Assembly: GCA_002305165.1 (NCBI GenBank)
Contig: DBQI01000065.1
Location: 16,794-80,793 of the forward strand
Direction: 5' to 3'
Length of the DNA: 64,000 nucleotides
DNA from: Armatimonadetes bacterium UBA1398
Lineage (GTDB): Bacteria; Armatimonadota; Zipacnadia; UBA1398
Shown: positions 43,079 to 52,705 of the stretch, one piece after another
Layout of the letters: each line of letters starts with the position of its first letter
Position numbering within the stretch: position 1 is the stretch's first letter
Position numbers and translations under genes: made by a program
Notes under the pieces: model-generated
The model's database searches: none
Told to the model about the DNA's origin: nothing
Seen by the model: only the letters and a program-made list of their open reading frames with translations

Positions 43079-43879
43079 ATGCCCAAGTACGACGTTCTCG
43101 CCATAGACATCGACGGCACCCTGCTCAACACGAACCACGAGATCCCGCCGGCTCATCTCGAGGCCGTCCGCGAGGCAGACGCCGCAGGGGTGCGCATCGT
43201 CCTCGCCTCGGGACGCATGCTACCCTCGGTGACCGTTGTCGGGGAGCAGATGGGGATCCGGCCCGGGCCCTGCGTGGGCTACAACGGGGGCCGGGTCTGC
43301 TCCGCTGAGACGGGGGAGGTCCTGTTCCACGAGCCCGTCCCCGCCGACCTGGCCCAGGAGCTGGTGCGTCGCTTCACCGATCTGGGGATGCACATCAACT
43401 ACTACCTCGATGATGTGCTCTACGTGGATCACATCGAGCAGTGGGGCAATCTCTACTCATACCGGACCGGCTCGCAGCAGGTGCCCGTTGGGCCGCTCCG
43501 GCAGTTCGACGGGCGAACGCCCACCAAGATCCTCATCATCGACGACCCCGAGCGCATCAAGGGGATCTGCCCCGAGTTCCAGAGGGAGTTCGGGGATCGG
43601 CTCTATGTCACCATCACCACGCCCGAGTACCTCGAGTTCATGAACAAGGCCGTGGATAAGGCCACGGGCGTGGCGGAGGCGGTGGCCTCGCTAGGAGTGC
43701 CTCGGGAGTGGACCGCCGCCGTGGGCGACGCCCTGAACGACCAGCCCATGATCGAATGGGCGGGCCTGGGCTGCGCCATGGGCAACGCCGACCCGCCCGT
43801 GCTCGCCGCCGCCGACGTCGTCGCCCCCAGCAACGACGAGGACGGCCTCGCGTGGTTCATCAGGGAGTATGTGCTATAG
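43079..43879 (+). CDS. Cof-type HAD-IIB family hydrolase (sugar phosphatase-like)
   Basis: Start at ATG 43079 (AAGGAG 7 nt upstream); HAD motif I LAIDIDGTLL and motif IV AVGDALND. Confidence 0.75.
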   Translation: MPKYDVLAIDIDGTLLNTNHEIPPAHLEAVREADAAGVRIVLASGRMLPSVTVVGEQMGIRPGPCVGYNGGRVCSAETGEVLFHEPVPADLAQELVRRFTDLGMHINYYLDDVLYVDHIEQWGNLYSYRTGSQQVPVGPLRQFDGRTPTKILIIDDPERIKGICPEFQREFGDRLYVTITTPEYLEFMNKAVDKATGVAEAVASLGVPREWTAAVGDALNDQPMIEWAGLGCAMGNADPPVLAAADVVAPSNDEDGLAWFIREYVL

Positions 43880-43912
43880 GGTTGCCCCTTGGAACCCCAT
43901 ATGCGCCTCGCG

Positions 43913-46900
43913 TCAGTGCTCCACCGCGGGCCAGTAGCGCGCCTCGTCGAAGTGCGGGCTCTTCCCCTCGGTGTGGCAGGTGAGGCATGTCTCCACCGTG
44001 AGCGGTTCGAGGATCTCGTGCCCCGTCTCCGTGGGCGGCCCGACCCGGTGGCAGGCGACACAGGTCACGTCCGGCAGCCGAGCCGCCTCGGGAACCAGGG
44101 GCGCAGCGGAGTGGCAGCTCCAGCAGTCGGGGTCGAACTCGCGGTCGAGGTCTCGCAGGGTCTGGGCCGCCCGGGCATGGGAAGTCGCCTGCCACTGTTC
44201 GAGCTGCTCGGCATGGCATGCCCCGCAGGTCTCTGGCTGGGCGGACTCGTCCGTCGCGGCCGCGAGGATGAGGTCTCGCTGCCCGGCTTGAACTCGCTCC
44301 TGGTACTCGGCGATGAGGCCGGCAACCTCGGGGCTATCGAGGATCTGCTCGTCCATGGGGATGAGATGGGGCTCGGCCGCGATGGGTCGCCCCTCGCCAT
44401 CGAGCCGCAGGGTGATCCGCCCCACCCACTCGCCGTTACGCCCCGGGGCCACGATGTGGGTGTCCCCCACCCTGTCAGGCACCTGTAGCGACATCCCCTC
44501 ATGGCCGCACACGATCACATCGATGCCCGGCACATCCTCCGCGAGGCGTCGCGCGTCCTCCAGCATCCCGTGGAAGAGCACCACGATGACCGAAGCCGAT
44601 GGCTTCAGGGACGCGATCTCTCGGCGGGCCGCCTCGGTGGCATCGGTGATCTCGGCCCCCTTAGGCGCCGCCGTATCCCCGAAGGCGAAGACGCGGGGCG
44701 ACGTAACGGCGACGACACCGACGCGAACGCCGCGCCGCTCAATGAGCTTCGAGCGCGGCTCAGCGGAGCCCACGGCCACGTTGGCGGCCACATAGGGCAA
44801 AGGCGAGCCCTGGATCAAGGCCGCTAGCACGTCGACGCTGTAGGTGAAATCCTGGTCGCCGATGGCGATCGCGTCATACTCCATCGCCGCGTAAGCCCTC
44901 TGCAGGTACTCGAACTTGGTCCACTCAGGAGTCTCGGAGAACACGTCGCCGCTATCCACAAGGATGGAGGCGGGATACATGTCGCGCAGCTCGGCGAGGG
45001 CGCCCGCTTGCCGGCTCAACCCACCGTAAGGGTTGCCTGGGCAGCGGCAGGCCTCGAGCTGGCCGTTCGTGCTGCCGGTATAGAGGATCGTCAGCGAGGT
45101 GGGGGCCAAGCCGATGCGGTCGGCGACGGCGAGGGCCGCCTCCTGGCCGGCGATATCCGCGACTTCCCGGTTCTCGTAGAGGAGCAGACACTCGCCGTAC
45201 ACCCCAAGCTCAGCCTGAACCTGGGCGTCGGCGTAGAGGGCGTCCATCAGCGCCCTATCGCTCGTGGCCCTCTCGCGGATCTCATCGGGCTCCAGGCCCG
45301 CGCGGCGGAGGGGCACATCCCAGTAGCTGCTGTTCGCAGCCTCGATGCGGCTCCTGAGGTAGGTCGCCATGGCCTGACGGTGATCGCGCCAGATCACGGC
45401 TTGGCGGGCCGCCTCCTCAATCTCGGCAACCCCGCCCTGGGCCGCCAGGTTCCCCTCGGCCGTGATCGCCAGGGCCGGGTGAAGCTCCAGGGAGTAAGCG
45501 GCCCCCCCACCCGCGCGCTCGAGCAGCTCGAGCACCGTCGCGACCGACTCCTGAGCGGCTGCGTCGGAGCAGCGGTAGTAGATGTCCAGGCGGTCGGGTT
45601 GCCGCTCGCGACCGACCATGAGGCCGGACACGGTGTTCTCGGGCCGGACCATGTAGTGGGTCCCGGTCTTCACGAGGCCACTGACGATCTGGTCCAGGTT
45701 GGGTCTCTGCTCGAGCTGCTCCGCAGGCAGGAAGAAGGCCGGCAGCCACTGGACGCCGCCCAGCTCGGCGAGGGCCTGGCCCTCCTCGCTCGCATACGTG
45801 ACCTCCCGCGGCTGGAGGCCGGGGAGCAGGCCTCCAAGGTCGCTGACCAAGGCGCGGTGGCTGGTGAGCGAGGCGTCCTCGGAGCCCACGACGATCAGCT
45901 CCAGCGGCGTCGGGTCGGTGAACTCGCAGCGCGCGTCACCCGTGCCGGCGTCGCGGCAGTAGCCGAGCTGCCCTGGCCGGCGGCAGTCGCTGTGGGAGGC
46001 GCACTCGGGCACCCCCGCGCAGGCCTCGCCGCGGAGGGCCTCGGGTAGGGTCCAACAGAGCGTTCGCAGGAGCGCGGGAGTTGCGTTGGCGCTCTCGTAC
46101 TCGACGTTGTTGAGGTAGAGGGTCGGCGTTCCGGGGATCATGAACCGCCGCGCGCGATCCGCATGGGCCAGGAGCATGGTGGCCACCTCGTCGGAGCCCG
46201 CGAGTTCCATGACCGCTCCGGGATCGAGCCCCTGGGCCTGCAGCACGGTGTCCGCCTCGACGGACGGCTGGAGGGCACGGAGGGAGGCGTAGCGCGCGAC
46301 AGCATCCCGGCCGTAGAGGACCTGAATGGCGAGTTCGCGCCTCGCCTCGACGATCGCCGGGGGACCGAAGGTGGAGTAGAATTGACCCGCTTCGGCGTCG
46401 AAGTGAACCACATGCCAGCGCCGGAGCTCCACGCGCCCCTCGCCGAAGAGCCGCAGCGCCTCGCGCAGTTGGGGCTCCATCTCGACGCAGTAGCCGCAGC
46501 CCCACGCCGTGTAGTAGTCGAGCACGAGGCGCGGCGCGTCGATGGTGTCCTTGCGCTGCAGCCACTCCTCGACCCGCTGGGCCTGAGCGGGGTCATCGGG
46601 CACGCTCGGGTCGAGGGGAATCTCGCGGAGGCGGTACTCGGCCATCGCTCTGCCGTCGACCTTCAGATCGAGCTGCGATAGCGCTCGCGCCTCGAGGTTG
46701 AACTCCCCGATGAGAGCGTCGCCCACCCTATCGATCAGTCCCCCTGGGCGGCGGTAGTGAGCGTTGATGAAGATGTCCACGCCCGGCACGGACTCTGCGA
46801 GGAGTCGGGTCCGGTCACTGCCCAGATGGGAGAGCACGACGACGAGGTCGACCTGGTCTCTCATCTCCTGCACAACCCGTGACACGCCCTCTATCGGGTC

Positions 46901-47482
46901 ACCCACCTGGGCCCACAGGCCCTGGCGCGGATCGCCGAGGGCGTAGAGGTCCTGGGGCGTGGCCGCAGTGACGCCGATGCTGACGCCACCGACCTCGGTG
47001 ATGAGGTACCGCTCCACCCCGGAGGCGGCCGCCGGTTCCTCTCCCATGTTGGCGGAAAGGAAGGGCGCAGCGCCGATCTCAGCGGCCCGGCGCAGGAACT
47101 CGGGCCCCCACTGAAGCTCCTCATCGCCCACGGCGTAGGCTGCGTACCCCATGTCGGCGCAGGCCGCCAGATGGACCTCGGTCCGCTCTCGGTCGACGAC
47201 GGGCCCCTCCGTGTACTCGTCGTAGGCGGTTCCGCCGAACTGGCCTCCCGCGTCCAACACGAGGGTGGGAGTGAACCCGTCGCGCCTCACCCGGTCCAGC
47301 GCATGCGCGCGGCGGGCGATGCCTCCGTCCTTGCTCACCACACACTCGCACGGCGTGACCAGGGAGTGCGTCTCGCCCGTGTACACGATGGTGATGTCCT
47401 TGACCTCAGCAGTGGAGCGCACCGAGAGGGTTAGCAGGAGCAAGCAGAGCGCAGGTGGCAGCGCCGCGCGGGTACGACTCAT
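43913..47482 (-). CDS. secreted multidomain redox protein: two metallophosphatase-like domains, DsbA-like thioredoxin domain (CGYC), Cys-rich segment, C-terminal tetrahaem c-type cytochrome domain
   Basis: 1189 aa; signal peptide; calcineurin-like blocks (ITIVYTGETH...DVDLVVVLSHLG...VDIFINAH and LTILYTGSTNG...VIVVLFHG...IDVIVCGHEG); thioredoxin CxxC plus GTPTLYLNN; four CxxCH (CGACH, CWSCH, CVACH, CLTCH). Confidence 0.6.
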   Translation of the reverse strand: MSRTRAALPPALCLLLLTLSVRSTAEVKDITIVYTGETHSLVTPCECVVSKDGGIARRAHALDRVRRDGFTPTLVLDAGGQFGGTAYDEYTEGPVVDRERTEVHLAACADMGYAAYAVGDEELQWGPEFLRRAAEIGAAPFLSANMGEEPAAASGVERYLITEVGGVSIGVTAATPQDLYALGDPRQGLWAQVGDPIEGVSRVVQEMRDQVDLVVVLSHLGSDRTRLLAESVPGVDIFINAHYRRPGGLIDRVGDALIGEFNLEARALSQLDLKVDGRAMAEYRLREIPLDPSVPDDPAQAQRVEEWLQRKDTIDAPRLVLDYYTAWGCGYCVEMEPQLREALRLFGEGRVELRRWHVVHFDAEAGQFYSTFGPPAIVEARRELAIQVLYGRDAVARYASLRALQPSVEADTVLQAQGLDPGAVMELAGSDEVATMLLAHADRARRFMIPGTPTLYLNNVEYESANATPALLRTLCWTLPEALRGEACAGVPECASHSDCRRPGQLGYCRDAGTGDARCEFTDPTPLELIVVGSEDASLTSHRALVSDLGGLLPGLQPREVTYASEEGQALAELGGVQWLPAFFLPAEQLEQRPNLDQIVSGLVKTGTHYMVRPENTVSGLMVGRERQPDRLDIYYRCSDAAAQESVATVLELLERAGGGAAYSLELHPALAITAEGNLAAQGGVAEIEEAARQAVIWRDHRQAMATYLRSRIEAANSSYWDVPLRRAGLEPDEIRERATSDRALMDALYADAQVQAELGVYGECLLLYENREVADIAGQEAALAVADRIGLAPTSLTILYTGSTNGQLEACRCPGNPYGGLSRQAGALAELRDMYPASILVDSGDVFSETPEWTKFEYLQRAYAAMEYDAIAIGDQDFTYSVDVLAALIQGSPLPYVAANVAVGSAEPRSKLIERRGVRVGVVAVTSPRVFAFGDTAAPKGAEITDATEAARREIASLKPSASVIVVLFHGMLEDARRLAEDVPGIDVIVCGHEGMSLQVPDRVGDTHIVAPGRNGEWVGRITLRLDGEGRPIAAEPHLIPMDEQILDSPEVAGLIAEYQERVQAGQRDLILAAATDESAQPETCGACHAEQLEQWQATSHARAAQTLRDLDREFDPDCWSCHSAAPLVPEAARLPDVTCVACHRVGPPTETGHEILEPLTVETCLTCHTEGKSPHFDEARYWPAVEH

Positions 47483-47515
47483 GCGGGTGGTCCTTTGGCC
47501 CCGACGGCGTCGGGT

Positions 47516-48853
47516 TTATCGGGGATCCGCGCAGCAGCGGAACCCAACATGATCAGCGTTCAGGACCGGGTGCTTCGGTCCTCCTGTGGTGCAGTCGAAG
47601 CGGTCGAGCCTTTGGTCGCGGAAGGAGGCGCCCCGGTGATCGACGGTCGTCTCCTCCGACCCCCAGTTGCTGCCGATCCACTCGGCCACATTGCCGATCA
47701 TGTCGTAGAGCCCATAGCCGCTCACGCAGTAGGGGCGGGAACCCAGGCGCTCGGCATGGGCGTCCTCGCCCATCATGACGCCGATGTTGCAGGCGCCCAG
47801 CACCGGCCTGTTGCCGTAGGAGAACTGCAGGCCATCGGGCCCGCGGCACCCAGCCTCCCACTCGTCGGGCTCACAAAGCCGCTTGTCTTTCTGGCGGCAC
47901 CAGCCGGAGGCGCCGAACTGATTGATGTCAGCCATGGGCTTGGCCCCGGGAAGGTTCGGGGCCTCGAAGACGTCGATGCAGACACGGCCCTCGACCAGCC
48001 GCATCCCCGCTGGGCACCGAGGTTCGGGCGGCATGCTCTTCATGACCATCGCGTCACTGGGTTCGCCGCCGAGGAGCGTTGGGGTCTGCGCCTCGCCCCC
48101 GCCCCCTTGGTAGACCCGCTCGGCCGTCGATTTGGTGAAGCCAACCAGCTCCTTGACCGTCACGGTCGCATCGGGCGGATCCGTATCCGCGAAGCCCGTG
48201 ACGCAGTTCGTGAGGCAGAACCCGAGAAGGGGCCGAGCGAGGCCAGCCTCATTGAGCTTCTGCCCCGGCGAGACGGCGGATAGAACGAGGCTGCTCGCCG
48301 CCAGGGGTTCGAGCACATCGCCCGGCACGGCCAGGTCCTCGGGCGTCCCCTCGGCCCTGAAGGCATCCCACGGCGAGGCGTCGAGCATGACCAGCTTCTT
48401 GGTGGCGGGTATCGCGGCCACGTAGTCGGCAAGCTGCCGGACGGTGATGGCCGTGTTCGGCAGGTCCGCGAGGTCCGCGTTGTACGGGCAGAGGTACAGC
48501 TCAAGCTGCCCATCCTCCCCCACGGAGGCCACCAGGGTGAGGCAAAGGTAGATGAAAACCTCATCCTCAGCGGCCGCCGACTGGCAGAACTCCAGGGCGC
48601 CAACGAGGTTCGACAGGCTGGCCTGTCCGCCGGCGAGGGCCCCGACGCGATCCATGGGGACCGCGCCGATCTCGGGGTTCGCGAACCGTTCCGCGACGAG
48701 GAAGGCGTAGGTCTCGCCCTCGGTCCGGCCCGGGATGTTGAAGTCGCGGTACTCGTTCACCCCCGCACACACCGCAAACCGCTGGGCCTCCTGCCCGGTT
48801 GCCCCGGCGACGAGCGTTCCGAGTATGATGGGGAACAGCCATGCGCGACTCAT
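47516..48853 (-). CDS. secreted caspase-like (peptidase C14 fold) domain fused to FGE-sulfatase-fold domain
   Basis: Start at ATG 48853 (AGGAAGG RBS) giving signal peptide MSRAWLFPIILGTLVAGATG; caspase-like FAVCAGVNEY...KKLVMLDASPW; C-terminal FGE-like YDMIGNVAEW, HRGASF, VGFRCC. Confidence 0.55.
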   Translation of the reverse strand: MSRAWLFPIILGTLVAGATGQEAQRFAVCAGVNEYRDFNIPGRTEGETYAFLVAERFANPEIGAVPMDRVGALAGGQASLSNLVGALEFCQSAAAEDEVFIYLCLTLVASVGEDGQLELYLCPYNADLADLPNTAITVRQLADYVAAIPATKKLVMLDASPWDAFRAEGTPEDLAVPGDVLEPLAASSLVLSAVSPGQKLNEAGLARPLLGFCLTNCVTGFADTDPPDATVTVKELVGFTKSTAERVYQGGGGEAQTPTLLGGEPSDAMVMKSMPPEPRCPAGMRLVEGRVCIDVFEAPNLPGAKPMADINQFGASGWCRQKDKRLCEPDEWEAGCRGPDGLQFSYGNRPVLGACNIGVMMGEDAHAERLGSRPYCVSGYGLYDMIGNVAEWIGSNWGSEETTVDHRGASFRDQRLDRFDCTTGGPKHPVLNADHVGFRCCADPR

Positions 48854-48907
48854 CGGCCACTCACCTTCCTCGGACGGCGCACTGAAGGGCAACCGCCGCC
48901 CGAACGT

Positions 48908-49939
48908 ATGGATGCTTGGGAAGCAGGGGCGATTCGTTTGGCGATAGGCAGCCGCTCCAGGTCGTGGTTACGCGTTGGCTCACTGGTTGGGCTTGTCATC
49001 ACCGCACCGCTCCTGATCCTTGCGGCCATCCGACTCTACGGCTCCTACGCTGGTCAGAAGACCGTCGCACACCGCGAGGTATGCCTCGACAATCTGCGGG
49101 TCATCGGGGGAGCGCTTCGCGCTTACTCCCTGGATCACGATGACCGCCTTCCTCCCGCGGCGACCTGGGAGGATCTCCTCCTAGAGGACACGGGAGACCC
49201 CCGGGTGTTCCTCTGTCCCGCCGCGCCCGAGGGCGCGGAAACGGGGTACGCCTACTACGCCGCCCTCTCCCAAGGCTCCCTCGCCTCCCTGGCGACCCCG
49301 GCCGACGTCCCCATGGCGTACGACTCGCCGAAGGGGACGTGGAACGCCCGCGATAGCCGGCCGGAGTTCCCCTCGCCTCCCCGCCACGGGGACCGAAACC
49401 ATGCCGTAATGGCCGACGGGTCCGCACGGAGCCTCGCCCCCTTCGACGTCTGGGTGGAGGCGCGGTTCCAGGAGGACGGGCCGGGCGGGCCAGGCGACAC
49501 GAAGGCCCTGCCGGGGTTCTCCGGACCCAGCATCCTCTTCCAGACGGACGAGCCTGTCGCCTTCCGCACCGAGCATGGTATCGAGTGGTCCGCCGAGCGC
49601 CTGCCCACGGGGTACGCTTTCCGCGGTCCCGAGGGCTCTCGCGCGTCGACCACCCTGGTGATGGCTGACGCGGAGGCCGGGCTGCCCGCTCTCGCGCCCG
49701 CGGCGACGATCGTGCGCCAGTTCGAGGTGAACCTCGCGCCCGAACCCGGCGCTTTCCCTGCTACAGCCGAGGTCACCGAAGTGACGGAGTCGGGCCTGCG
49801 GAGCCTACGGGTGACGGTCCAGTCCGAGCCCCCGCTCAAGGCGCTCATCACCGTCCCCGAGGATGCGGGTGATGAGGCGCTGGCCGAGGCGTGCCTCCCG
49901 CTGACGGCCCTGCGCTGGATCGAGAAGATACCTCAGTAG
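48908..49939 (+). CDS. H-X9-DG domain (DUF1559-type) pseudopilin-like protein
   Basis: N-terminal hydrophobic helix then CLDNLRVIGGALRAYSLDHDDRLPP and the H-X9-DG motif HGDRNHAVMADGSARSL. Confidence 0.5.
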   Translation: MDAWEAGAIRLAIGSRSRSWLRVGSLVGLVITAPLLILAAIRLYGSYAGQKTVAHREVCLDNLRVIGGALRAYSLDHDDRLPPAATWEDLLLEDTGDPRVFLCPAAPEGAETGYAYYAALSQGSLASLATPADVPMAYDSPKGTWNARDSRPEFPSPPRHGDRNHAVMADGSARSLAPFDVWVEARFQEDGPGGPGDTKALPGFSGPSILFQTDEPVAFRTEHGIEWSAERLPTGYAFRGPEGSRASTTLVMADAEAGLPALAPAATIVRQFEVNLAPEPGAFPATAEVTEVTESGLRSLRVTVQSEPPLKALITVPEDAGDEALAEACLPLTALRWIEKIPQ

Positions 49940-49993: not shown

Positions 49994-50665
49994 ATGAACC
50001 GCTGGCTGATCGGATCCTTCGCCATCGTGGCACTGGCGCCCTCGGCGCTCGCCCAGGCCGAGCCCTTGCCCGATGTGCCCAGGGAGCACCCGGCGTCCTG
50101 GGCCGTCGCCACCCTCTGGCGCGCCGACGTGATCAGGGGCTCCAATGACGGGCTCTTCCACGGCGACGAGCGCATCAGCGAACTTGAGGCCATCGCCCTC
50201 GCCGCCCGGCTTAGCGCGGCGCTGAACAACGTGGCCGTCATCCGAGCCGACTGGTCGATGGACCGGTATCTGGCGCGGTTCTGGCATGAGGAGTACCCCG
50301 CTCGCGGCGGTGTGCCCTTGCCCGCGGGCCACTGGGCGGCCCTGGAGTGGAGCTACCTGGCGCGCATCACGCCGGCTGAGGTGGAGCTGCTCGACGCCTG
50401 GCCCGAACCGCTGCCGACCCGCTACGAAGCCGCCATCGCGGCGGCCACGGTGCTGCGCGAGGCGCGCAAGGCCATCCGCGGTCGGCTTGTGAGCGACTAC
50501 GCCGGGGGTATGCTGCCCGACTCCGCCGTCAATGACACCATGCCCATGGACTACGTGCCCTGGTCGGACCATGGCAGCGGCCACGGGCCAGATCACGGAC
50601 CGGCGGCGCCCATGCAGGGCGTCATACCGTTCGGTCCGCCCCCCTCTATGGCGGCCCCTGAGTAG
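49994..50665 (+). CDS. SLH (S-layer homology) domain protein
   Basis: Signal peptide MNRWLIGSFAIVALAPSALAQA; SLH-like DVPREHPASWAVATLWRADVIRGSNDGLFHGDERISELEAIALAARL. Confidence 0.55.
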   Translation: MNRWLIGSFAIVALAPSALAQAEPLPDVPREHPASWAVATLWRADVIRGSNDGLFHGDERISELEAIALAARLSAALNNVAVIRADWSMDRYLARFWHEEYPARGGVPLPAGHWAALEWSYLARITPAEVELLDAWPEPLPTRYEAAIAAATVLREARKAIRGRLVSDYAGGMLPDSAVNDTMPMDYVPWSDHGSGHGPDHGPAAPMQGVIPFGPPPSMAAPE

Positions 50666-51536
50666 CGTCCAGCAGGGCGATCAGCGCCTCCACAGGCACG
50701 CACTCCTTGACCACCATCTGCAGCCGACGCTCCTCCTCATCGGCGTAGAGCGCCTGTGTAACGGCCGCGACGCCCACCACCGCCCCGGTCTCATCGAGCA
50801 CGGGCGCGCCGCTGGAGCCTACGGCGTACTCGGCGGTGATGGACAGGGCGGGCCGTCCATCCCGGGCCCGTGCGTAGCGGCGGGAGAGGATGCCCTCGGT
50901 GAGCGTGTACGCCCGCTGCCTGGGGTGGCTGATGACCGCGACCGGGGCGCCCACGGGCGAGCCGGACTTGAGGGGGAGGGGCTCTGTGGCTGCCTCGATA
51001 CGAACCACCGCCAGGTCCGCCTCGGGGTCGCCGCCCTCGGCCCCAACCACGGAATACACCCGGCCATCCAGCGATGACGCGCCCAGGAGCTCATAGTCCG
51101 TCTCGAGGACGTGGTGGTTCGTCACGAGCAGGCCGTCGTCGGTGACGGCGAAGGCAGTCGCGATGCGCACATGCCACCGCTCGCAGTTGGGGCAGAGGTA
51201 CCGTCCGCCCAAGAGGTAGACGCTCGGAGCGCATCGGGCGTAGAGCTCCGGCAGGTCCAGGGACTCGTCCGTCGGCGCTGGAAGGCGCTCGACCGTCACG
51301 TGGCCCGACGCGCCAGCGAGGAGCTCCTCGCGACTCGCCCCGATCCCGCGCTCGGCCAAGGAGGCGAGCTCCCGACTCAGCCGCTCCTGGACCGCCACGT
51401 CCTCCACGTCCACCGGGTGCTGCAGGCAGAGGGTGTCCGCTGACAGCGGATCGGGGCACGGATGGCGAGGCAGAAGCGGCAGCGTGGCGAGGGCGCCGAG
51501 GACGAGGCCGAGCAGCGCCCCTAGCAGGAACCGCAC
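50646..51536 (-). CDS. trypsin-like serine protease (S1 family)
   Basis: Catalytic triad contexts TNHHV (His), DLAVVRI (Asp), GSSGAPV (Ser); start tentatively at GTG 51536 (AAGGGGG upstream) rather than track TTG 51575; 3' end overlaps SLH gene by 20 nt. Confidence 0.65.
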   Translation of the reverse strand: MRFLLGALLGLVLGALATLPLLPRHPCPDPLSADTLCLQHPVDVEDVAVQERLSRELASLAERGIGASREELLAGASGHVTVERLPAPTDESLDLPELYARCAPSVYLLGGRYLCPNCERWHVRIATAFAVTDDGLLVTNHHVLETDYELLGASSLDGRVYSVVGAEGGDPEADLAVVRIEAATEPLPLKSGSPVGAPVAVISHPRQRAYTLTEGILSRRYARARDGRPALSITAEYAVGSSGAPVLDETGAVVGVAAVTQALYADEEERRLQMVVKECVPVEALIALLDATQGPP

Positions 51537-51550
51537 TGGGTGCACCCCCT

Positions 51551-52705
51551 TCACGCGAGCTGCTGCTTCACCCAAGCCTCCAGGCCATTGGTGGACTCAG
51601 CGAAGCTCTCCGCCGTGGCGACGACCGCCGGGTGATCTCGGAAGGTCTCGGGGTCCTCCCCCTCCTCATAGCCCGCGCGGAAGTAGGGGACTCGGAGCAG
51701 GGTATCCAGGACCTCCTTCGGCACGGCTGCAGGCTGCGTGGGCAACTCCTCCCCGTCGTACTCCTCCAGCCAGGATTCGATGATGTTCGGGAAGATGGTC
51801 AGCACCACGGGCTGGGCGCAGATCTTCTCCAGGTGCCAGATCCTGACCCGACCGTCTACCACGGGTCCCACGCGCATCGAGGCGGCGAGCATCTTGCTCT
51901 CGTAACCCCGCTCGGCGTAGAGGGCGACGGCCTTGTTGAAGATCGCGGGGCCGGACCAGCGGCGGAGCTCATCGGTCAGCTCGACCCCGACGGACCGCGC
52001 GGACTCATCGAAGGCCGGATGGTCCTCGAACCGCCCCAGCATCATCGTGCAGACGGAGCGCCATCCCGAGAGGTCCACCCCCGCCTGTCGCGCGAGGGCC
52101 AAGCCCGTCTTGACCGCCTCCGCCACGGCGACGATCTGGCTGATGGTGAAGACGAGGGTCGCGTTGGTGGGGATGCCGAGAGCCGTGAGGAGGGTGATGC
52201 CATGGATGCCCTCCTTGACGCCAGGCATCTTGATCATCACGTTCGGGCTCATGGCATGGAGGCCGATGCCCATGGAGACCATCGCCGCCGTGCTCTTGAG
52301 CTCACGCGGATCGACTTGGCCGGACAGGTAGCCCAGGGCCTTCCCCGAGTTCTCGTAGATCCCTCTGAAGCGCTCGGCGCCCTCCCTCACCACGCTCTCG
52401 TAGAGCTTCCACATGGCCTCGGCTGGATCGGAGGCCTGGCCGCCCGTCATCTCCCGCAACCTGGCCGCCCATCGGCTCGGGTCGTACTCCACCGCCTGGG
52501 CGGTCAAGGGCGGGTTGGTCGTGCAGCCCACCAGTACCTCCTCCACCCCCTCGAGCCGCTCGCTGCAGCGGTCAGCGTCGGTCCGCCCCTCGTGGGCGGC
52601 GATGACCTCGGACTTCCACGCGTCAAGGATCAGCGGCGAGGAGTCGAACCAGACCTCGAGCTCGGGATGGGTGGCGGCTAGCGCGGCCAGCGGGTTGGTT
52701 GCCAT
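51551..52705 (-). CDS. tal: transaldolase
   Basis: 384 aa; VGCTTNPPL (transaldolase TTNP motif) and Schiff-base Lys region MIKMPGV. Confidence 0.7.
   Translation of the reverse strand: MATNPLAALAATHPELEVWFDSSPLILDAWKSEVIAAHEGRTDADRCSERLEGVEEVLVGCTTNPPLTAQAVEYDPSRWAARLREMTGGQASDPAEAMWKLYESVVREGAERFRGIYENSGKALGYLSGQVDPRELKSTAAMVSMGIGLHAMSPNVMIKMPGVKEGIHGITLLTALGIPTNATLVFTISQIVAVAEAVKTGLALARQAGVDLSGWRSVCTMMLGRFEDHPAFDESARSVGVELTDELRRWSGPAIFNKAVALYAERGYESKMLAASMRVGPVVDGRVRIWHLEKICAQPVVLTIFPNIIESWLEEYDGEELPTQPAAVPKEVLDTLLRVPYFRAGYEEGEDPETFRDHPAVVATAESFAESTNGLEAWVKQQLA

What the first reader, a model, noticed from the sequence alone, without database searches (positions are those of the whole stretch)
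43913..48853. Secreted caspase-like/FGE fusion immediately upstream of a 1189-aa secreted metallophosphatase-like/DsbA-like/tetrahaem cytochrome c protein
Two co-directional minus-strand genes separated by 33 nt. The first has a signal peptide, a caspase-fold N-terminal domain in which the expected catalytic contexts read IYLCLT (no His) and MLDAS (Ser where Cys is expected), and a C-terminal FGE-sulfatase-fold domain. The second combines domains not normally found together: two calcineurin-like phosphoesterase repeats, a thioredoxin CxxC domain, a Cys-rich linker and four CxxCH haem sites. This looks like a periplasmic redox/maturation module of unknown function; caspase-FGE fusions are otherwise associated with conflict/signalling proteins.
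Basis: partly seen in the sequence, partly recalled or inferred. Interest (0 to 1): 0.75.

Follow-up and report, generated by a model that had tools for sequence, protein, structure and literature searches.

The report
Secreted haem-thiol redox protein pair
Two co-transcribed secreted proteins of an uncultured bacterium: a 1189-residue protein that joins cysteine-based and haem-based redox centres on two disabled phosphatase-like domains, and a partner built from a disabled caspase-like and a disabled FGE-like domain. The parts belong to known but uncharacterised families, so this is a good biochemical lead, not a new kind of system.

Summary
Gene A (47516-48853, minus strand, 445 aa) and gene B (43913-47482, minus strand, 1189 aa) lie 33 nt apart and are real genes.

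**Gene B** is not an odd one-off mix. It fuses two units that exist separately elsewhere:
- a "short form" of about 790 aa: a UshA-like domain with the motif E-T-H-x4-P-C-x-C, a DsbA/GILT-like domain (CGYC plus cis-Pro), a six-Cys knot and two redox-inactive thioredoxin-like domains;
- a UshA-like(CxC)-tetrahaem c554 unit, the pattern of NCBIfam NF041198 "UshA-like (seleno)protein".

The canonical phosphoesterase metal ligands are replaced in both UshA-like domains. In Planctomycetota, the short form instead sits directly downstream of a secreted FMN-binding protein that carries a CxxC and a flavinylation motif.

Most likely B is a periplasmic haem-to-cysteine oxidoreductase and A is a non-catalytic partner. 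This is inferred; the substrate is unknown. The A-B pair is kept in all 6 checked loci of one Armatimonadia-like clade, but A is absent next to a 38%-identical long form. There is no defence signal.

Verdict: new variant of a known kind, moderate interest.

The parts
47516..48853 (-). Gene A: secreted pseudo-orthocaspase / FGE-like protein, 445 aa including its stop codon.
48794..48853 (-). Gene A residues 1-20: predicted Sec signal peptide.
   Evidence: Read from the sequence (MSRAWLFPIILGTLVAGATG). The region has low pLDDT. A hydrophobic N-terminus is present in all homologues.
48059..48790 (-). Gene A residues 22-265: caspase-fold domain without the His/Cys dyad. It carries YLCLT at 102-106 and LDASPW at 157-162.
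47519..48022 (-). Gene A residues 278-445: FGE-sulfatase-fold domain lacking the catalytic Cys pair (SUMF2-like), with 10 invariant Cys.
43913..47482 (-). Gene B: 1189-aa secreted multi-domain redox protein, including its stop codon.
47408..47482 (-). Gene B residues 1-25: predicted Sec signal peptide.
   Evidence: Read from the sequence. pLDDT is below 50. It is conserved as a hydrophobic N-terminus in alignment A1.
46583..47407 (-). Gene B residues 26-300: first UshA-like (5'-nucleotidase N-domain fold) domain, with motifs G-E-T-H (36-39), P-C-E-C (44-47), DAGG (77-80) and GDEE (119-122).
47342..47350 (-). CxC motif 1 (Cys45-Glu-Cys47).
   Evidence: Invariant in alignment A1. Each Cys is present in 65 of 75 family representatives. 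It is the position of the CxU motif in selenoprotein members (PMC2398784, PMC13188914).
46067..46540 (-). Gene B residues 315-472: DsbA/GILT-like thioredoxin-fold domain with CGYC (329-332, window 46487-46498) and a cis-Pro loop G-T-P (451-453).
45917..46057 (-). Gene B residues 476-522: six-cysteine knot-like linker (C476, C488, C494, C500, C509, C519).
   Evidence: Invariant in A1. Each Cys is present in 64-68 of 75 representatives.
45599..45916 (-). Gene B residues 523-628: thioredoxin/glutaredoxin-like domain without redox cysteines.
   Evidence: A profile of this region hits the Pyrococcus protein disulfide oxidoreductases 1j08 and 1a8l at E 8e-5, with the CxxC position not conserved.
45098..45598 (-). 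Gene B residues 629-795: second DsbA-like domain without a conserved CxxC.
   Evidence: Pfam DSBA is hit by 4 of 10 family members. PDB 3gyk at E 0.055. Cys638 is not conserved.
44339..45097 (-). Gene B residues 796-1048: second UshA-like domain, with the motif A-C-R-C-P-G-N-P-Y-G-G (CxC at 812-814, window 45041-45049).
   Evidence: NF049981 at 91.5 bits and SoxB at 118 bits, both below their cut-offs. PDB 5'-nucleotidase matches cover residues 796-999.
43916..44245 (-). Gene B residues 1080-1189: tetrahaem cytochrome c554-like domain, with CxxCH at 1086, 1120, 1141 and 1166.
   Evidence: PF13435 at 29.2 bits, above its 20.8 cut-off. PDB 1bvb at E 4.8e-5. All four motifs are conserved in the stand-alone relatives.

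Best explanation
Gene B most likely encodes a periplasmic multi-centre oxidoreductase. Electrons would pass between four c-type haems and cysteine-based redox centres. Those centres are the CxC pair in each of the two phosphatase-derived (UshA-like) domains and the CGYC pair of the DsbA/GILT-like domain.

B appears to be a fusion of two units. One is a widespread "short form": UshA-like(CxC), a DsbA-like domain, a Cys knot and two inactive thioredoxin-like domains. The other is a UshA-like(CxC)-tetrahaem c554 unit.

The inactive thioredoxin-like domains and the DsbC-type CGYC motif with its cis-Pro loop suggest that the final substrates are cysteine thiols or disulfides of exported proteins or peptides. 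The reaction would be reduction, isomerisation or oxidation, coupled to the respiratory chain through the haems.

Gene A is co-transcribed. Its product is a secreted pseudo-caspase/pseudo-FGE protein, most likely a non-catalytic binding or scaffold partner.

- **Shown:** the domain content, the loss of the canonical catalytic residues, the conservation of the Cys motifs, the alternative haem or FMN partners, and the conserved gene pairing within one clade.
- **Inferred:** the electron path, its direction, the substrate, and any physical A-B interaction.
For: 1. The canonical metallophosphoesterase ligands are replaced.
   - Domain 1: DxH becomes E-T-H, the bridging Asp of the GD motif becomes Gly80, and GNHE becomes GDEE.
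   - Domain 2: DxH becomes S-T-N, and GNHE becomes GDQD.
   - A CxC pair follows motif I in both domains and is conserved.
2. In relatives the same position holds CxU (selenocysteine). Selenocysteine is typical of redox sites (PMC2398784, PMC13188914). B scores 302 bits on NF041198 against a cut-off of 275.
3. The link between UshA-like(CxC) domains and electron carriers recurs in independent forms.
   - Stand-alone UshA-like(CxC)+c554 proteins: P0183, P0185 and others.
   - A permuted fusion, UshA-like+c554+DsbA+thioredoxin-like, in P0174.
   - In at least 12 Planctomycetota-type loci, a secreted FMN_bind protein lies directly upstream, often overlapping by 4 nt. It has a conserved CPxC and the flavinylation motif DxxSGATKT, and is frequently preceded by RibF.
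   - Cytochromes, thioredoxin-like proteins and flavinylated FMN-binding proteins are described as interchangeable extracytosolic electron mediators (PMC8238504).
5. Both proteins carry Sec-type signal sequences, and c-type haem attachment requires export (established knowledge).
6. Gene A lies directly upstream of gene B in the window and in L001, L003, L005, L007 and L073. These loci have at least three different upstream and four different downstream contexts. Four further pairs are inferred from matching contig lengths.
7. Gene A lacks the caspase dyad and the FGE Cys pair, and these losses are invariant among its homologues.
Against: - There is no experimental datum for any member of these families. 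The substrate and the direction of electron flow are unknown.
- In most short forms the DsbA-like site is monothiol C-P-Y-G: the second Cys is present in only 14 of 75. Classical dithiol exchange is therefore not a property of the whole family.
- The AF2 model of B is only moderate (pLDDT 76, pTM 0.53). It has low confidence at both CxC loops and in the haem domain, so distances between centres could not be assessed.
- E37, H39, D120, H219 and H242 are conserved. A mononuclear metal site, and thus some hydrolytic or metal-dependent chemistry, is not excluded.
- Gene A is absent next to the 38%-identical long form L025 and next to all short forms and stand-alone UshA-like-c554 genes. A is therefore not required by the core chemistry.
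Confidence: 0.4

Rival explanations
1. B is a periplasmic enzyme for small inorganic or organic sulfur or selenium compounds, such as polysulfide, thiosulfate-type adducts or selenite. The CxC (CxU in relatives) site in the SoxB-like fold would be the catalytic or carrier site. The thioredoxin-like domains and haems would only relay electrons.
For: - Selenocysteine occurs at the CxC position in relatives.
- Stand-alone UshA-like(CxC)-c554 proteins lack any thioredoxin-like domain, so the UshA-like(CxC) domain looks like the catalytic core.
- The monothiol CPYG motif in most short forms suits mixed-disulfide or persulfide carriage.
- A UGSC-family gene lies near one stand-alone member.
Against: - The SoxB score is far below its 550-bit cut-off.
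- The dinuclear-metal ligands that SoxB needs are replaced.
- No sox, dsr, rhodanese or other sulfur-metabolism genes occur in the window or in related loci.
- Two redox-inactive thioredoxin-like domains are more typical of proteins that bind polypeptide substrates (inference from the architecture of protein disulfide isomerases, PDI).
Confidence: 0.25
2. B is a genuine nucleotidase or phosphodiesterase for nutrient scavenging, and simply carries extra domains.
For: - Some ligand-like residues are retained: E37, H39, H219 and H242.
Against: - The bridging Asp is Gly80, and Asn-His of GNHE is Asp-Glu in domain 1. In domain 2, Asp and His of motif I are Ser and Asn, and GNHE is GDQD.
- There is no Pfam Metallophos hit at E<=0.1 and no 5'-nucleotidase C-terminal substrate-binding domain.
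- The recurrent coupling to haem or FMN carriers has no rationale for a hydrolase.
Confidence: 0.07
3. Genes A and B are neighbours only through inherited gene order in a narrow clade. They have unrelated functions.
For: - The pairing is seen only in long forms at least 54% identical to B, all from Armatimonadia/WS1-type genomes assembled from metagenomes (MAGs).
- It is absent at L025 (38% identity), at the short forms and at the stand-alone units.
- The divergent genes p343 and p223 are also syntenic in 4 loci.
Against: - The pair persists while both flanks change: at least three upstream and four downstream contexts. A further context, a his operon upstream of an A homologue, is probable but its downstream gene is truncated and unverified.
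- A and B homologues have diverged to 45% and 54% identity respectively.
- Intergenic gaps are 8-60 nt on the same strand, and both products are exported.
Confidence: 0.2
4. The pair is a conflict, defence or signalling module, as suggested by caspase-FGE fusions elsewhere.
For: Caspase-homologue/FGE-sulfatase fusions are a recurrent bacterial architecture, found in 33 of 671 bacterial metacaspases (PMC3501461). There is a weak NCBIfam hit to an EACC1-associated caspase, at 21.8 bits against a cut-off of 140.
Against: - PADLOC gives no hits for A, B or the two upstream genes.
- Both catalytic sites of A are lost.
- Both proteins are secreted.
- There are no NTPase, sensor or effector neighbours. 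The flanks are housekeeping genes.
Confidence: 0.03

Closest known systems
NCBIfam NF041198 / NF049981 "UshA-like (seleno)protein" (COG0737 UshA-like CxU selenoprotein family of Zhang & Gladyshev 2008); function unknown
   Same: - It has a 5'-nucleotidase-type N-domain with a Cys-x-Cys/Sec pair directly after motif I.
- The second half of B (residues 796-1189) has the same UshA-like-tetrahaem c554 layout as the stand-alone members P0183 and P0185. P0185 is 33% identical over 99% of the unit.
- B exceeds the NF041198 cut-off, 302 against 275 bits.
   Different: - The score is summed over three stretches: two UshA-like copies plus the cytochrome.
- The motifs are P-C-E-C and A-C-R-C-P, not P-C-G-U, and there is no selenocysteine.
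- B adds about 790 residues: the first UshA-like domain, a DsbA/GILT-like domain, a Cys knot and two inactive thioredoxin-like domains.
"Short-form" UshA-like(CxC)-DsbA-like proteins of Planctomycetota, Omnitrophota and others (unnamed, about 580-810 aa), with their FMN_bind partner
   Same: - Residues 1-795 of B align end to end with them, for example P0011 at 29% identity.
- They share the E-T-H-x4-P-C-x-C-P motif, the DAGG motif, the six-Cys knot and the cis-Pro loop.
   Different: - The short forms lack the second UshA-like domain and the haems.
- Most have monothiol C-P-Y-G instead of CGYC.
- Their adjacent partner is a flavinylatable FMN_bind/CPxC protein rather than gene A.
5'-nucleotidase UshA/CD73 and thiosulfohydrolase SoxB (dinuclear metallophosphoesterases)
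   Different: - The metal-ligand and catalytic motifs are replaced.
- There is no C-terminal substrate-binding domain.
- The NCBIfam scores are far below the cut-offs.
Thiol-disulfide relays that end in a non-thiol electron carrier: DsbA-DsbB-quinone, DsbD-DsbC, and mitochondrial Mia40-Erv1(FAD)-cytochrome c (mechanistic analogues, from established knowledge)
   Same: - B has a DsbA-like CxxC domain with a cis-Pro loop. CGYC is the E. coli DsbC motif (established knowledge).
- B has additional Cys pairs and a one-electron carrier (haem, or FMN in relatives) within one system.
   Different: - There is no homology to DsbB, VKOR, DsbD or Erv1.
- The candidate converter is a phosphatase-derived domain.
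- Everything is soluble and fused in one polypeptide.
- None of this has been tested.
Orthocaspase/metacaspase-FGE-sulfatase fusion proteins, pseudo-orthocaspases, and SUMF2 (pFGE)
   Same: - Gene A aligns over its full length with P0034, a Peptidase_C14+FGE protein (probability 99.2%).
- The architecture is a known recurrent one (PMC3501461).
- Pseudo-orthocaspases without the His-Cys dyad make up 8.6% of bacterial homologues (PMC6426788).
- The best PDB sequence match of the C-domain is SUMF2, the Cys-less FGE paralogue.
   Different: - Both domains are catalytically disabled at once.
- The dyad positions are a deletion/Thr and a Ser, not the common Tyr-Ser.
- The protein is secreted and strictly paired with a haem-thiol redox protein.
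Cytochrome c554 (Nitrosomonas europaea tetrahaem)
   Same: It has four CxxCH motifs. Pfam PF13435 scores above its cut-off. PDB 1bvb matches at E 4.8e-5 over residues 1084-1182.
   Different: - It covers only the first half of c554.
- It is fused to a UshA-like domain.
- There is no link to hydroxylamine oxidation.

Membership tests
NF041198 UshA-like (seleno)protein | Whole-protein HMM score at or above the curated cut-off of 275 bits. | tested here: met
   B scores 302.2 bits, but over 3 stretches. The single-unit relatives P0183, P0174 and P0185 score 270, 255 and 218 bits.
NF041198 UshA-like (seleno)protein | A Cys-x-Cys/Sec pair (P-C-G-U/C) directly after motif I of the phosphatase-like domain. 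| tested here: met
   B has P-C-E-C at residues 44-47 and A-C-R-C at 811-814. The middle residue differs from Gly, and there is no Sec.
NF041198 UshA-like (seleno)protein | UshA-like domain followed by a c554-type tetrahaem domain. This layout is inferred from members; the model's own definition was not seen. | tested here: met
   Residues 796-1189 align with P0183, P0185 and others, with all four CxxCH conserved.
Calcineurin-like metallophosphoesterase / 5'-nucleotidase (UshA, CD73) | Metal-ligand and catalytic motifs DxH, GD, GNH(E/D), H and GH. | tested here: not met
   Domain 1 has E-x-H, DAGG (Gly replaces the bridging Asp) and GDEE. Domain 2 has S-T-N and GDQD.
Calcineurin-like metallophosphoesterase / 5'-nucleotidase (UshA, CD73) | C-terminal 5'-nucleotidase substrate-binding domain (PF02872). 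| tested here: not met
   There is no PF02872 and no PF00149 hit at E<=0.1.
Calcineurin-like metallophosphoesterase / 5'-nucleotidase (UshA, CD73) | Fold of the N-terminal catalytic domain. | tested here: met
SoxB thiosulfohydrolase | TIGR04486 score at or above 550 bits, and a sox gene context. | tested here: not met
   B scores 118 bits. There are no sox genes in the window or in related loci.
DsbA-like thiol-disulfide oxidoreductase | Thioredoxin fold with a helical insertion. | tested here: met
DsbA-like thiol-disulfide oxidoreductase | CxxC active site plus a cis-Pro loop. | tested here: met
   CGYC at 329-332 and G-T-P at 451-453 are invariant in the long forms. In the wider family the second Cys is present in only 14 of 75.
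Cytochrome c554 family / multihaem cytochrome c | CxxCH haem-attachment motifs and a PF13435 score above its cut-off. | tested here: met
   Four CxxCH motifs. PF13435 scores 29.2 bits against 20.8. Haem attachment itself cannot be tested here.
Caspase / Peptidase_C14 (orthocaspase) | Caspase-hemoglobinase fold (p20-like domain). | tested here: met
Caspase / Peptidase_C14 (orthocaspase) | Catalytic His-Cys dyad. | tested here: not met
   G-H is deleted, with Thr106 next to the gap, and Cys is replaced by Ser160. These changes are invariant in 9 homologues.
Formylglycine-generating enzyme (FGE/SUMF1) | FGE-sulfatase fold (PF03781). | tested here: met
Formylglycine-generating enzyme (FGE/SUMF1) | Two active-site (copper-binding) cysteines: Cys336 and Cys341 in human SUMF1 (established knowledge). 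| tested here: not met
   In the alignments to 2afy and 2aft these positions are Asp413 and Leu416. Only the structural Cys421 aligns. The best match is SUMF2.
Known anti-phage defence systems | A match to any PADLOC model, or defence-type neighbours. | tested here: not met
   No hits for A, B, p343 or p223. The neighbours are housekeeping genes.
ApbE-flavinylated extracytosolic electron-transfer systems (PMC8238504) | An FMN_bind protein with an [S/T]GA[S/T] motif in the same cluster. | tested here: not met
   It is not present in this window. It is present next to the short-form relatives. ApbE itself was not found in the loci held.

The most novel reading that the evidence does not exclude
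The phosphatase-derived UshA-like domain with its CxC (CxU) pair may be a new kind of redox-converter domain. It would couple two-electron thiol or selenol chemistry to one-electron carriers, either c-type haems in cis or flavinylated FMN in trans. On this reading, protein B is a self-contained, soluble periplasmic disulfide relay running from substrate to CGYC to CxC to haems, or the reverse. It would do the job of DsbB/VKOR or DsbD without a membrane quinone or cytoplasmic thioredoxin step. The pseudo-caspase/pseudo-FGE protein A would be its client-recognition subunit.
Probability: 0.15. Interest if true: 0.8.

Novelty: new variant of a known kind. Interest (0 to 1): 0.5.

Why it matters
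The UshA-like CxU/CxC (seleno)protein family has been listed in selenoproteome surveys since 2008 without a function.

This locus and its relatives give the family a testable frame:
- The phosphoesterase ligands are gone, while the Cys pair is conserved.
- The domain is repeatedly wired to haem or FMN carriers and to DsbA/GILT-like domains.

If the domain converts between thiol and haem or flavin electrons, it would be a new route for extracytoplasmic thiol redox control in phyla that are poorly studied, namely Armatimonadota/WS1, Planctomycetota and Omnitrophota.

The Cys-only long form in this window is also a convenient construct for heterologous expression, because it needs no selenocysteine machinery. 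Gene A adds an example of a doubly disabled pseudoenzyme (caspase plus FGE) kept as an operon partner.

Tried and rejected
- **Structure libraries.** A Foldseek search of the AlphaFold database (afdb50) was not available on the machine. Foldseek against the PDB returned only 5'-nucleotidases.
- It was redone with alignment A3.
- The first metagenome query, with an 18-sequence alignment, had no stretch conserved enough to search with. It was redone with 7 sequences.
- **Contexts of stand-alone UshA-like-c554 genes.** These were heterogeneous and uninformative. The 881-aa and 428-aa upstream proteins there show no similarity to B.
- **Neighbours of other short-form clades.** Apart from the FMN_bind/RibF group, they are housekeeping genes such as TyrRS, a Ser/Thr kinase, a PLP enzyme and a Na/Pi transporter. 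They were rejected as functional partners.
- **In-frame TGA at the CxC position.** A search of all held loci found only one spurious match. The fetching pattern required PCDC, so this does not bear on whether Sec variants exist.
- **Promoter and terminator scan of 43600-49200.** It gave nothing above the shuffled expectation.
- **PADLOC.** No hits.
- **Literature.** Searches found no functional study of the family.
- **FGE acting on the CxC loop of B.** This idea was considered and dropped. The loop sequences (PCECVVSK, ACRCPGNP) do not fit the C-x-P-x-R motif (established knowledge), and the FGE cysteines are missing.

Full report
**1. The observation**

One search lists two co-directional minus-strand ORFs. 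One is 43913..47482, 1189 aa with an ATG start (gene B). The other is 47516..48892 with a TTG start. Its in-frame ATG at 48853 gives a 445-aa product (gene A) that is 100% identical to database protein P0017. The stop of A and the start of B are 33 nt apart.

Third-position GC is 0.87 and 0.85 in a window of about 68% GC. Both genes have homologues, so they are real genes. The gene to the left is a convergent HAD/Cof hydrolase. The gene to the right is divergent. The rest of the neighbourhood is ordinary metabolism: GH43, PEP carboxykinase, MFS, trypsin-like peptidase, transaldolase, SpoIIM, ROK and an ADH. The two genes therefore form a bicistronic unit. A consensus promoter/terminator scan added nothing.

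**2. Gene A**

Pfam finds only FGE-sulfatase, at residues 282-441 with 53.3 bits. The caspase assignment rests on structure and on profile comparison.
- The AF2 model has pLDDT 84 and pTM 0.84.
- hhalign of the family alignment against P0034, a protein with precomputed Pfam Peptidase_C14+FGE-sulfatase, aligns the full length at probability 99.2%. Where P0034 reads Y-F-A-G-H-G-T, gene A reads Y-L-C-L-(gap)-T. Where P0034 reads L-D-S-C, gene A reads L-D-A-S.

These features (Y102, C104, L105, T106, D158, S160, P161, W162) are invariant in nine homologues that are 45-78% identical.

The FGE-like domain matches SUMF2 best among solved structures. In the alignments to the two SUMF1 active-site mutants, the two catalytic cysteines correspond to Asp413 and Leu416. 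Only the structural Cys421 is kept. A is therefore a doubly disabled pseudoenzyme with a Sec-type signal peptide and ten invariant cysteines in its C-domain.

Caspase-homologue/FGE fusions are a known recurrent architecture, found in 33 of 671 bacterial metacaspases (PMC3501461). Dyad-less pseudo-orthocaspases are also known, at 8.6% (PMC6426788).

**3. Gene B, domain by domain**

| Residues | Domain | Main evidence |
|---|---|---|
| 1-25 | signal peptide | sequence; pLDDT below 50 |
| 476-522 | six invariant cysteines | Cys knot |
| 523-628 | thioredoxin/glutaredoxin-like domain without cysteines | profile hit to Pyrococcus protein disulfide oxidoreductase, E 8e-5 |
| 629-795 | second DsbA-like domain without a conserved CxxC | |
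| 796-1048 | second UshA-like domain | |
| 1049-1079 | long helix | |
| 1080-1189 | tetrahaem c554-like domain | PF13435 at 29.2 bits against 20.8; 1bvb E 4.8e-5; CxxCH at 1086, 1120, 1141, 1166 |

The AF2 model of B is moderate (pLDDT 76). It is weakest at the two CxC loops and in the haem domain. That is expected for regions that depend on cofactors.

**4. The phosphatase-like domains are not phosphatases by sequence**

Compared with 5'-nucleotidases (alignment), the two domains differ as follows.

| Motif | Canonical | Domain 1 | Domain 2 |
|---|---|---|---|
| I | N-D-x-H | G-E-T-H | G-S-T-N |
| II | GD (bridging Asp) | D-A-G-G (Asp replaced by Gly80) | GD kept |
| III | G-N-H-E | G-D-E-E | G-D-Q-D |

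These replacements are documented. Pfam Metallophos is not hit, and there is no 5'-nucleotidase C-terminal domain.

Both domains carry a Cys-x-Cys pair a few residues after motif I: P-C45-E-C47 and A-C812-R-C814-P-G-N-P-Y-G-G.

NCBIfam names this family. NF041198 "UshA-like (seleno)protein" scores 302 bits against a cut-off of 275, summed over three stretches. NF049981 "family 2" scores 91.5 bits, below its cut-off of 140. Selenoproteome papers list the family with a CxU motif and no known function (PMC2398784, PMC9312934, PMC13188914).

**5. B is a fusion of two units that occur separately**

An exhaustive HMMER search with domain 1 found 6085 cluster representatives at E<=1e-3 and 49 at E<=1e-30. 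Nearly all carry the hallmark E-T-H-x4-P-C-x-C-P-x3-G-G.

The length classes are about 300-430 aa (domain alone), 580-600 aa, 750-810 aa ("short form") and about 1190-1210 aa (long form; three clusters). The short forms align with residues 1-795 of B, including the knot and both extra thioredoxin-like domains.

The second half of B (796-1189) has stand-alone relatives of 370-530 aa, consisting of a UshA-like(C-G/R-C) domain plus a c554 tetrahaem. P0185 is 33% identical over 99% of the unit. P0174 (992 aa) has the permuted order UshA-like, c554, DsbA-like, thioredoxin-like. The two UshA-like domains of B belong to different subfamilies, so B is a fusion and not a tandem duplication.

**6. Conservation across 75 representatives**

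| Position | Residue kept | Count of 75 |
|---|---|---|
| 37 | Glu | 62 |
| 39 | His | 69 |
| 45, 47 | Cys (each) | 65 |
| 80 | Gly | 64 |
| 120 | Asp | 65 |
| 219 | His | 70 |
| 242 | His | 68 |
| first DsbA-like Cys | Cys | 62 |
| second DsbA-like Cys | Cys | 14 (usual motif C-P-Y-G) |
| cis-Pro | Pro | 72 |
| knot cysteines | Cys (each) | 64-68 |

The constant redox-type feature of the family is therefore the CxC pair. The dithiol CGYC is a speciality of the long forms and a few short forms.

**7. Partners**

In genome and metagenome loci, the gene directly upstream of the short form is a secreted 230-310-aa protein. It often overlaps the short form by 4 nt. It has a C-terminal FMN_bind domain (PF04205), a conserved C-P-x-C-(N/S)-D motif and the flavinylation motif D-x-x-S-G-A-T-K-T. 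This was seen in at least 12 loci, commonly preceded by RibF.

Méheust et al. describe cytochromes, thioredoxin-like proteins and ApbE-flavinylated FMN-binding proteins as three interchangeable classes of extracytosolic electron mediators (PMC8238504). That paper's main text does not contain the terms nucleotidase, metallophos or DsbA.

The same core is thus wired either to FMN in trans or to four haems in cis. This is the strongest argument found here that the core is a redox enzyme.

Other short-form clades have only housekeeping neighbours. The contexts of stand-alone UshA-like-c554 genes are heterogeneous.

**8. The A-B pairing**

Full-length homologues of B are few: about ten clusters, 54-99% identical, all from metagenomes or MAGs. 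In the species-representative genome set they occur only in three Armatimonadia MAGs. The 100%-identical A protein is labelled candidate division WS1.

An A homologue lies immediately upstream of B, with gaps of 8-60 nt, in the window and in L001/L002, L003/L006, L005, L007 and L073. One short contig shows an A homologue followed by a truncated gene.

The flanks differ:
- **Upstream:** p343/p223 in four loci, fucose isomerase-PfkB-aldolase (L003), and ACPS-RDD (L073). The short contig has his genes upstream, but its downstream gene is truncated and not verified as a B homologue.
- **Downstream:** HAD, an FAD oxidoreductase, BNR_2, and a peptidase S9.

This favours a functional operon. However, a long form of a different lineage (L025, 38% identical over the full length, four CxxCH) has no A homologue within 5 kb. 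Neither do the short forms or the stand-alone units. A is therefore a clade-specific accessory, not part of the core chemistry.

**9. Mechanism (inference)**

I propose that B is a periplasmic oxidoreductase that moves electrons between the haems and cysteine centres: CxC in each UshA-like domain and CGYC in the DsbA/GILT-like domain. The redox-inactive thioredoxin-like domains may bind a polypeptide substrate, in the manner of the b domains of PDI. CGYC is the active-site motif of E. coli DsbC (established knowledge), and the closest fold match is the thiol reductase GILT. Both lean towards reduction or isomerisation, but the direction is open.

A plain nucleotidase role is unlikely for the reasons given in section 4. 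A defence role has no support.

For A, the loss of both catalytic sites, together with conserved surfaces and cysteines, points to a binding or scaffold role. No tool here could test an A-B interface.

**10. Comparison and verdict**

B is a member of the NF041198-type family by score and motif. By architecture it is a new fusion variant that joins two uncharacterised units. A is a pseudo-variant of the known caspase-FGE architecture.

Nothing is categorically new. The locus does expose a coherent, untested redox hypothesis for a family that has been "function unknown" since 2008. It also shows that relatives form a previously undescribed type of cluster containing a flavinylatable protein.

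Interest is 0.5. Novelty is "new variant of a known kind".

Noticed in passing
window 48908-49939 (+) and 49994-50665 (+): Two genes are transcribed divergently from gene A. p343 is membrane-anchored with no family hit. p223 has a weak SLH domain (E 0.14 here, 1.4e-7 in the L001 orthologue). Both are conserved in this position in L001, L005 and L007, but not in L003 or L073. They may belong to the same cell-envelope module, or may only be syntenic.
   Followed up: partly
L011:5090-5923, L017:5054-5914, L016:4991-5920, L014:2121-3590, L028, L039, L042, L061 and others: Short-form relatives of B in Planctomycetota-type contigs are preceded by a secreted protein with a conserved CPxC(N/S)D motif and an FMN_bind domain carrying the DxxSGATKT flavinylation motif. 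RibF often lies upstream of that. This cluster type is not mentioned, under nucleotidase, metallophosphatase or DsbA terms, in the main text of the flavinylation survey PMC8238504.
   Followed up: partly
family representatives P0038-P0184 (alignment): Most short forms have a monothiol C-P-Y-G in the DsbA-like domain: 47 of 75 have Gly at the second position. The long forms have CGYC. This suggests different thiol chemistry within one family.
   Followed up: partly
L025:4689-8597: This is a long form from another lineage. The ORF is 1302 aa, though the true start is probably about 100 codons later. It is 38% identical to B over the full length and has four CxxCH. It lacks any gene A homologue; a divergent 1111-aa Ala-rich helical-repeat ORF lies upstream instead.
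   Followed up: yes
L018:1964-2353, also L019 and L020: A UGSC-family (PF24696) gene, a family that includes selenoproteins, lies two genes upstream of the stand-alone UshA-like-c554 gene P0188. An unannotated 428-aa gene lies between them.
   Followed up: no
L003:1799-3091: A second, more distant FGE-sulfatase gene (430 aa, 28% identical to the FGE-like domain of A) lies about 5 kb upstream of the A-B pair in one Armatimonadia MAG. This hints at a paralogous expansion of FGE-fold proteins in this lineage.
   Followed up: no
window 50646-51575 (-): A secreted trypsin-like peptidase (PF13365) lies three genes from the pair. It overlaps the end of p223 on the opposite strand and is probably unrelated.
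   Followed up: no
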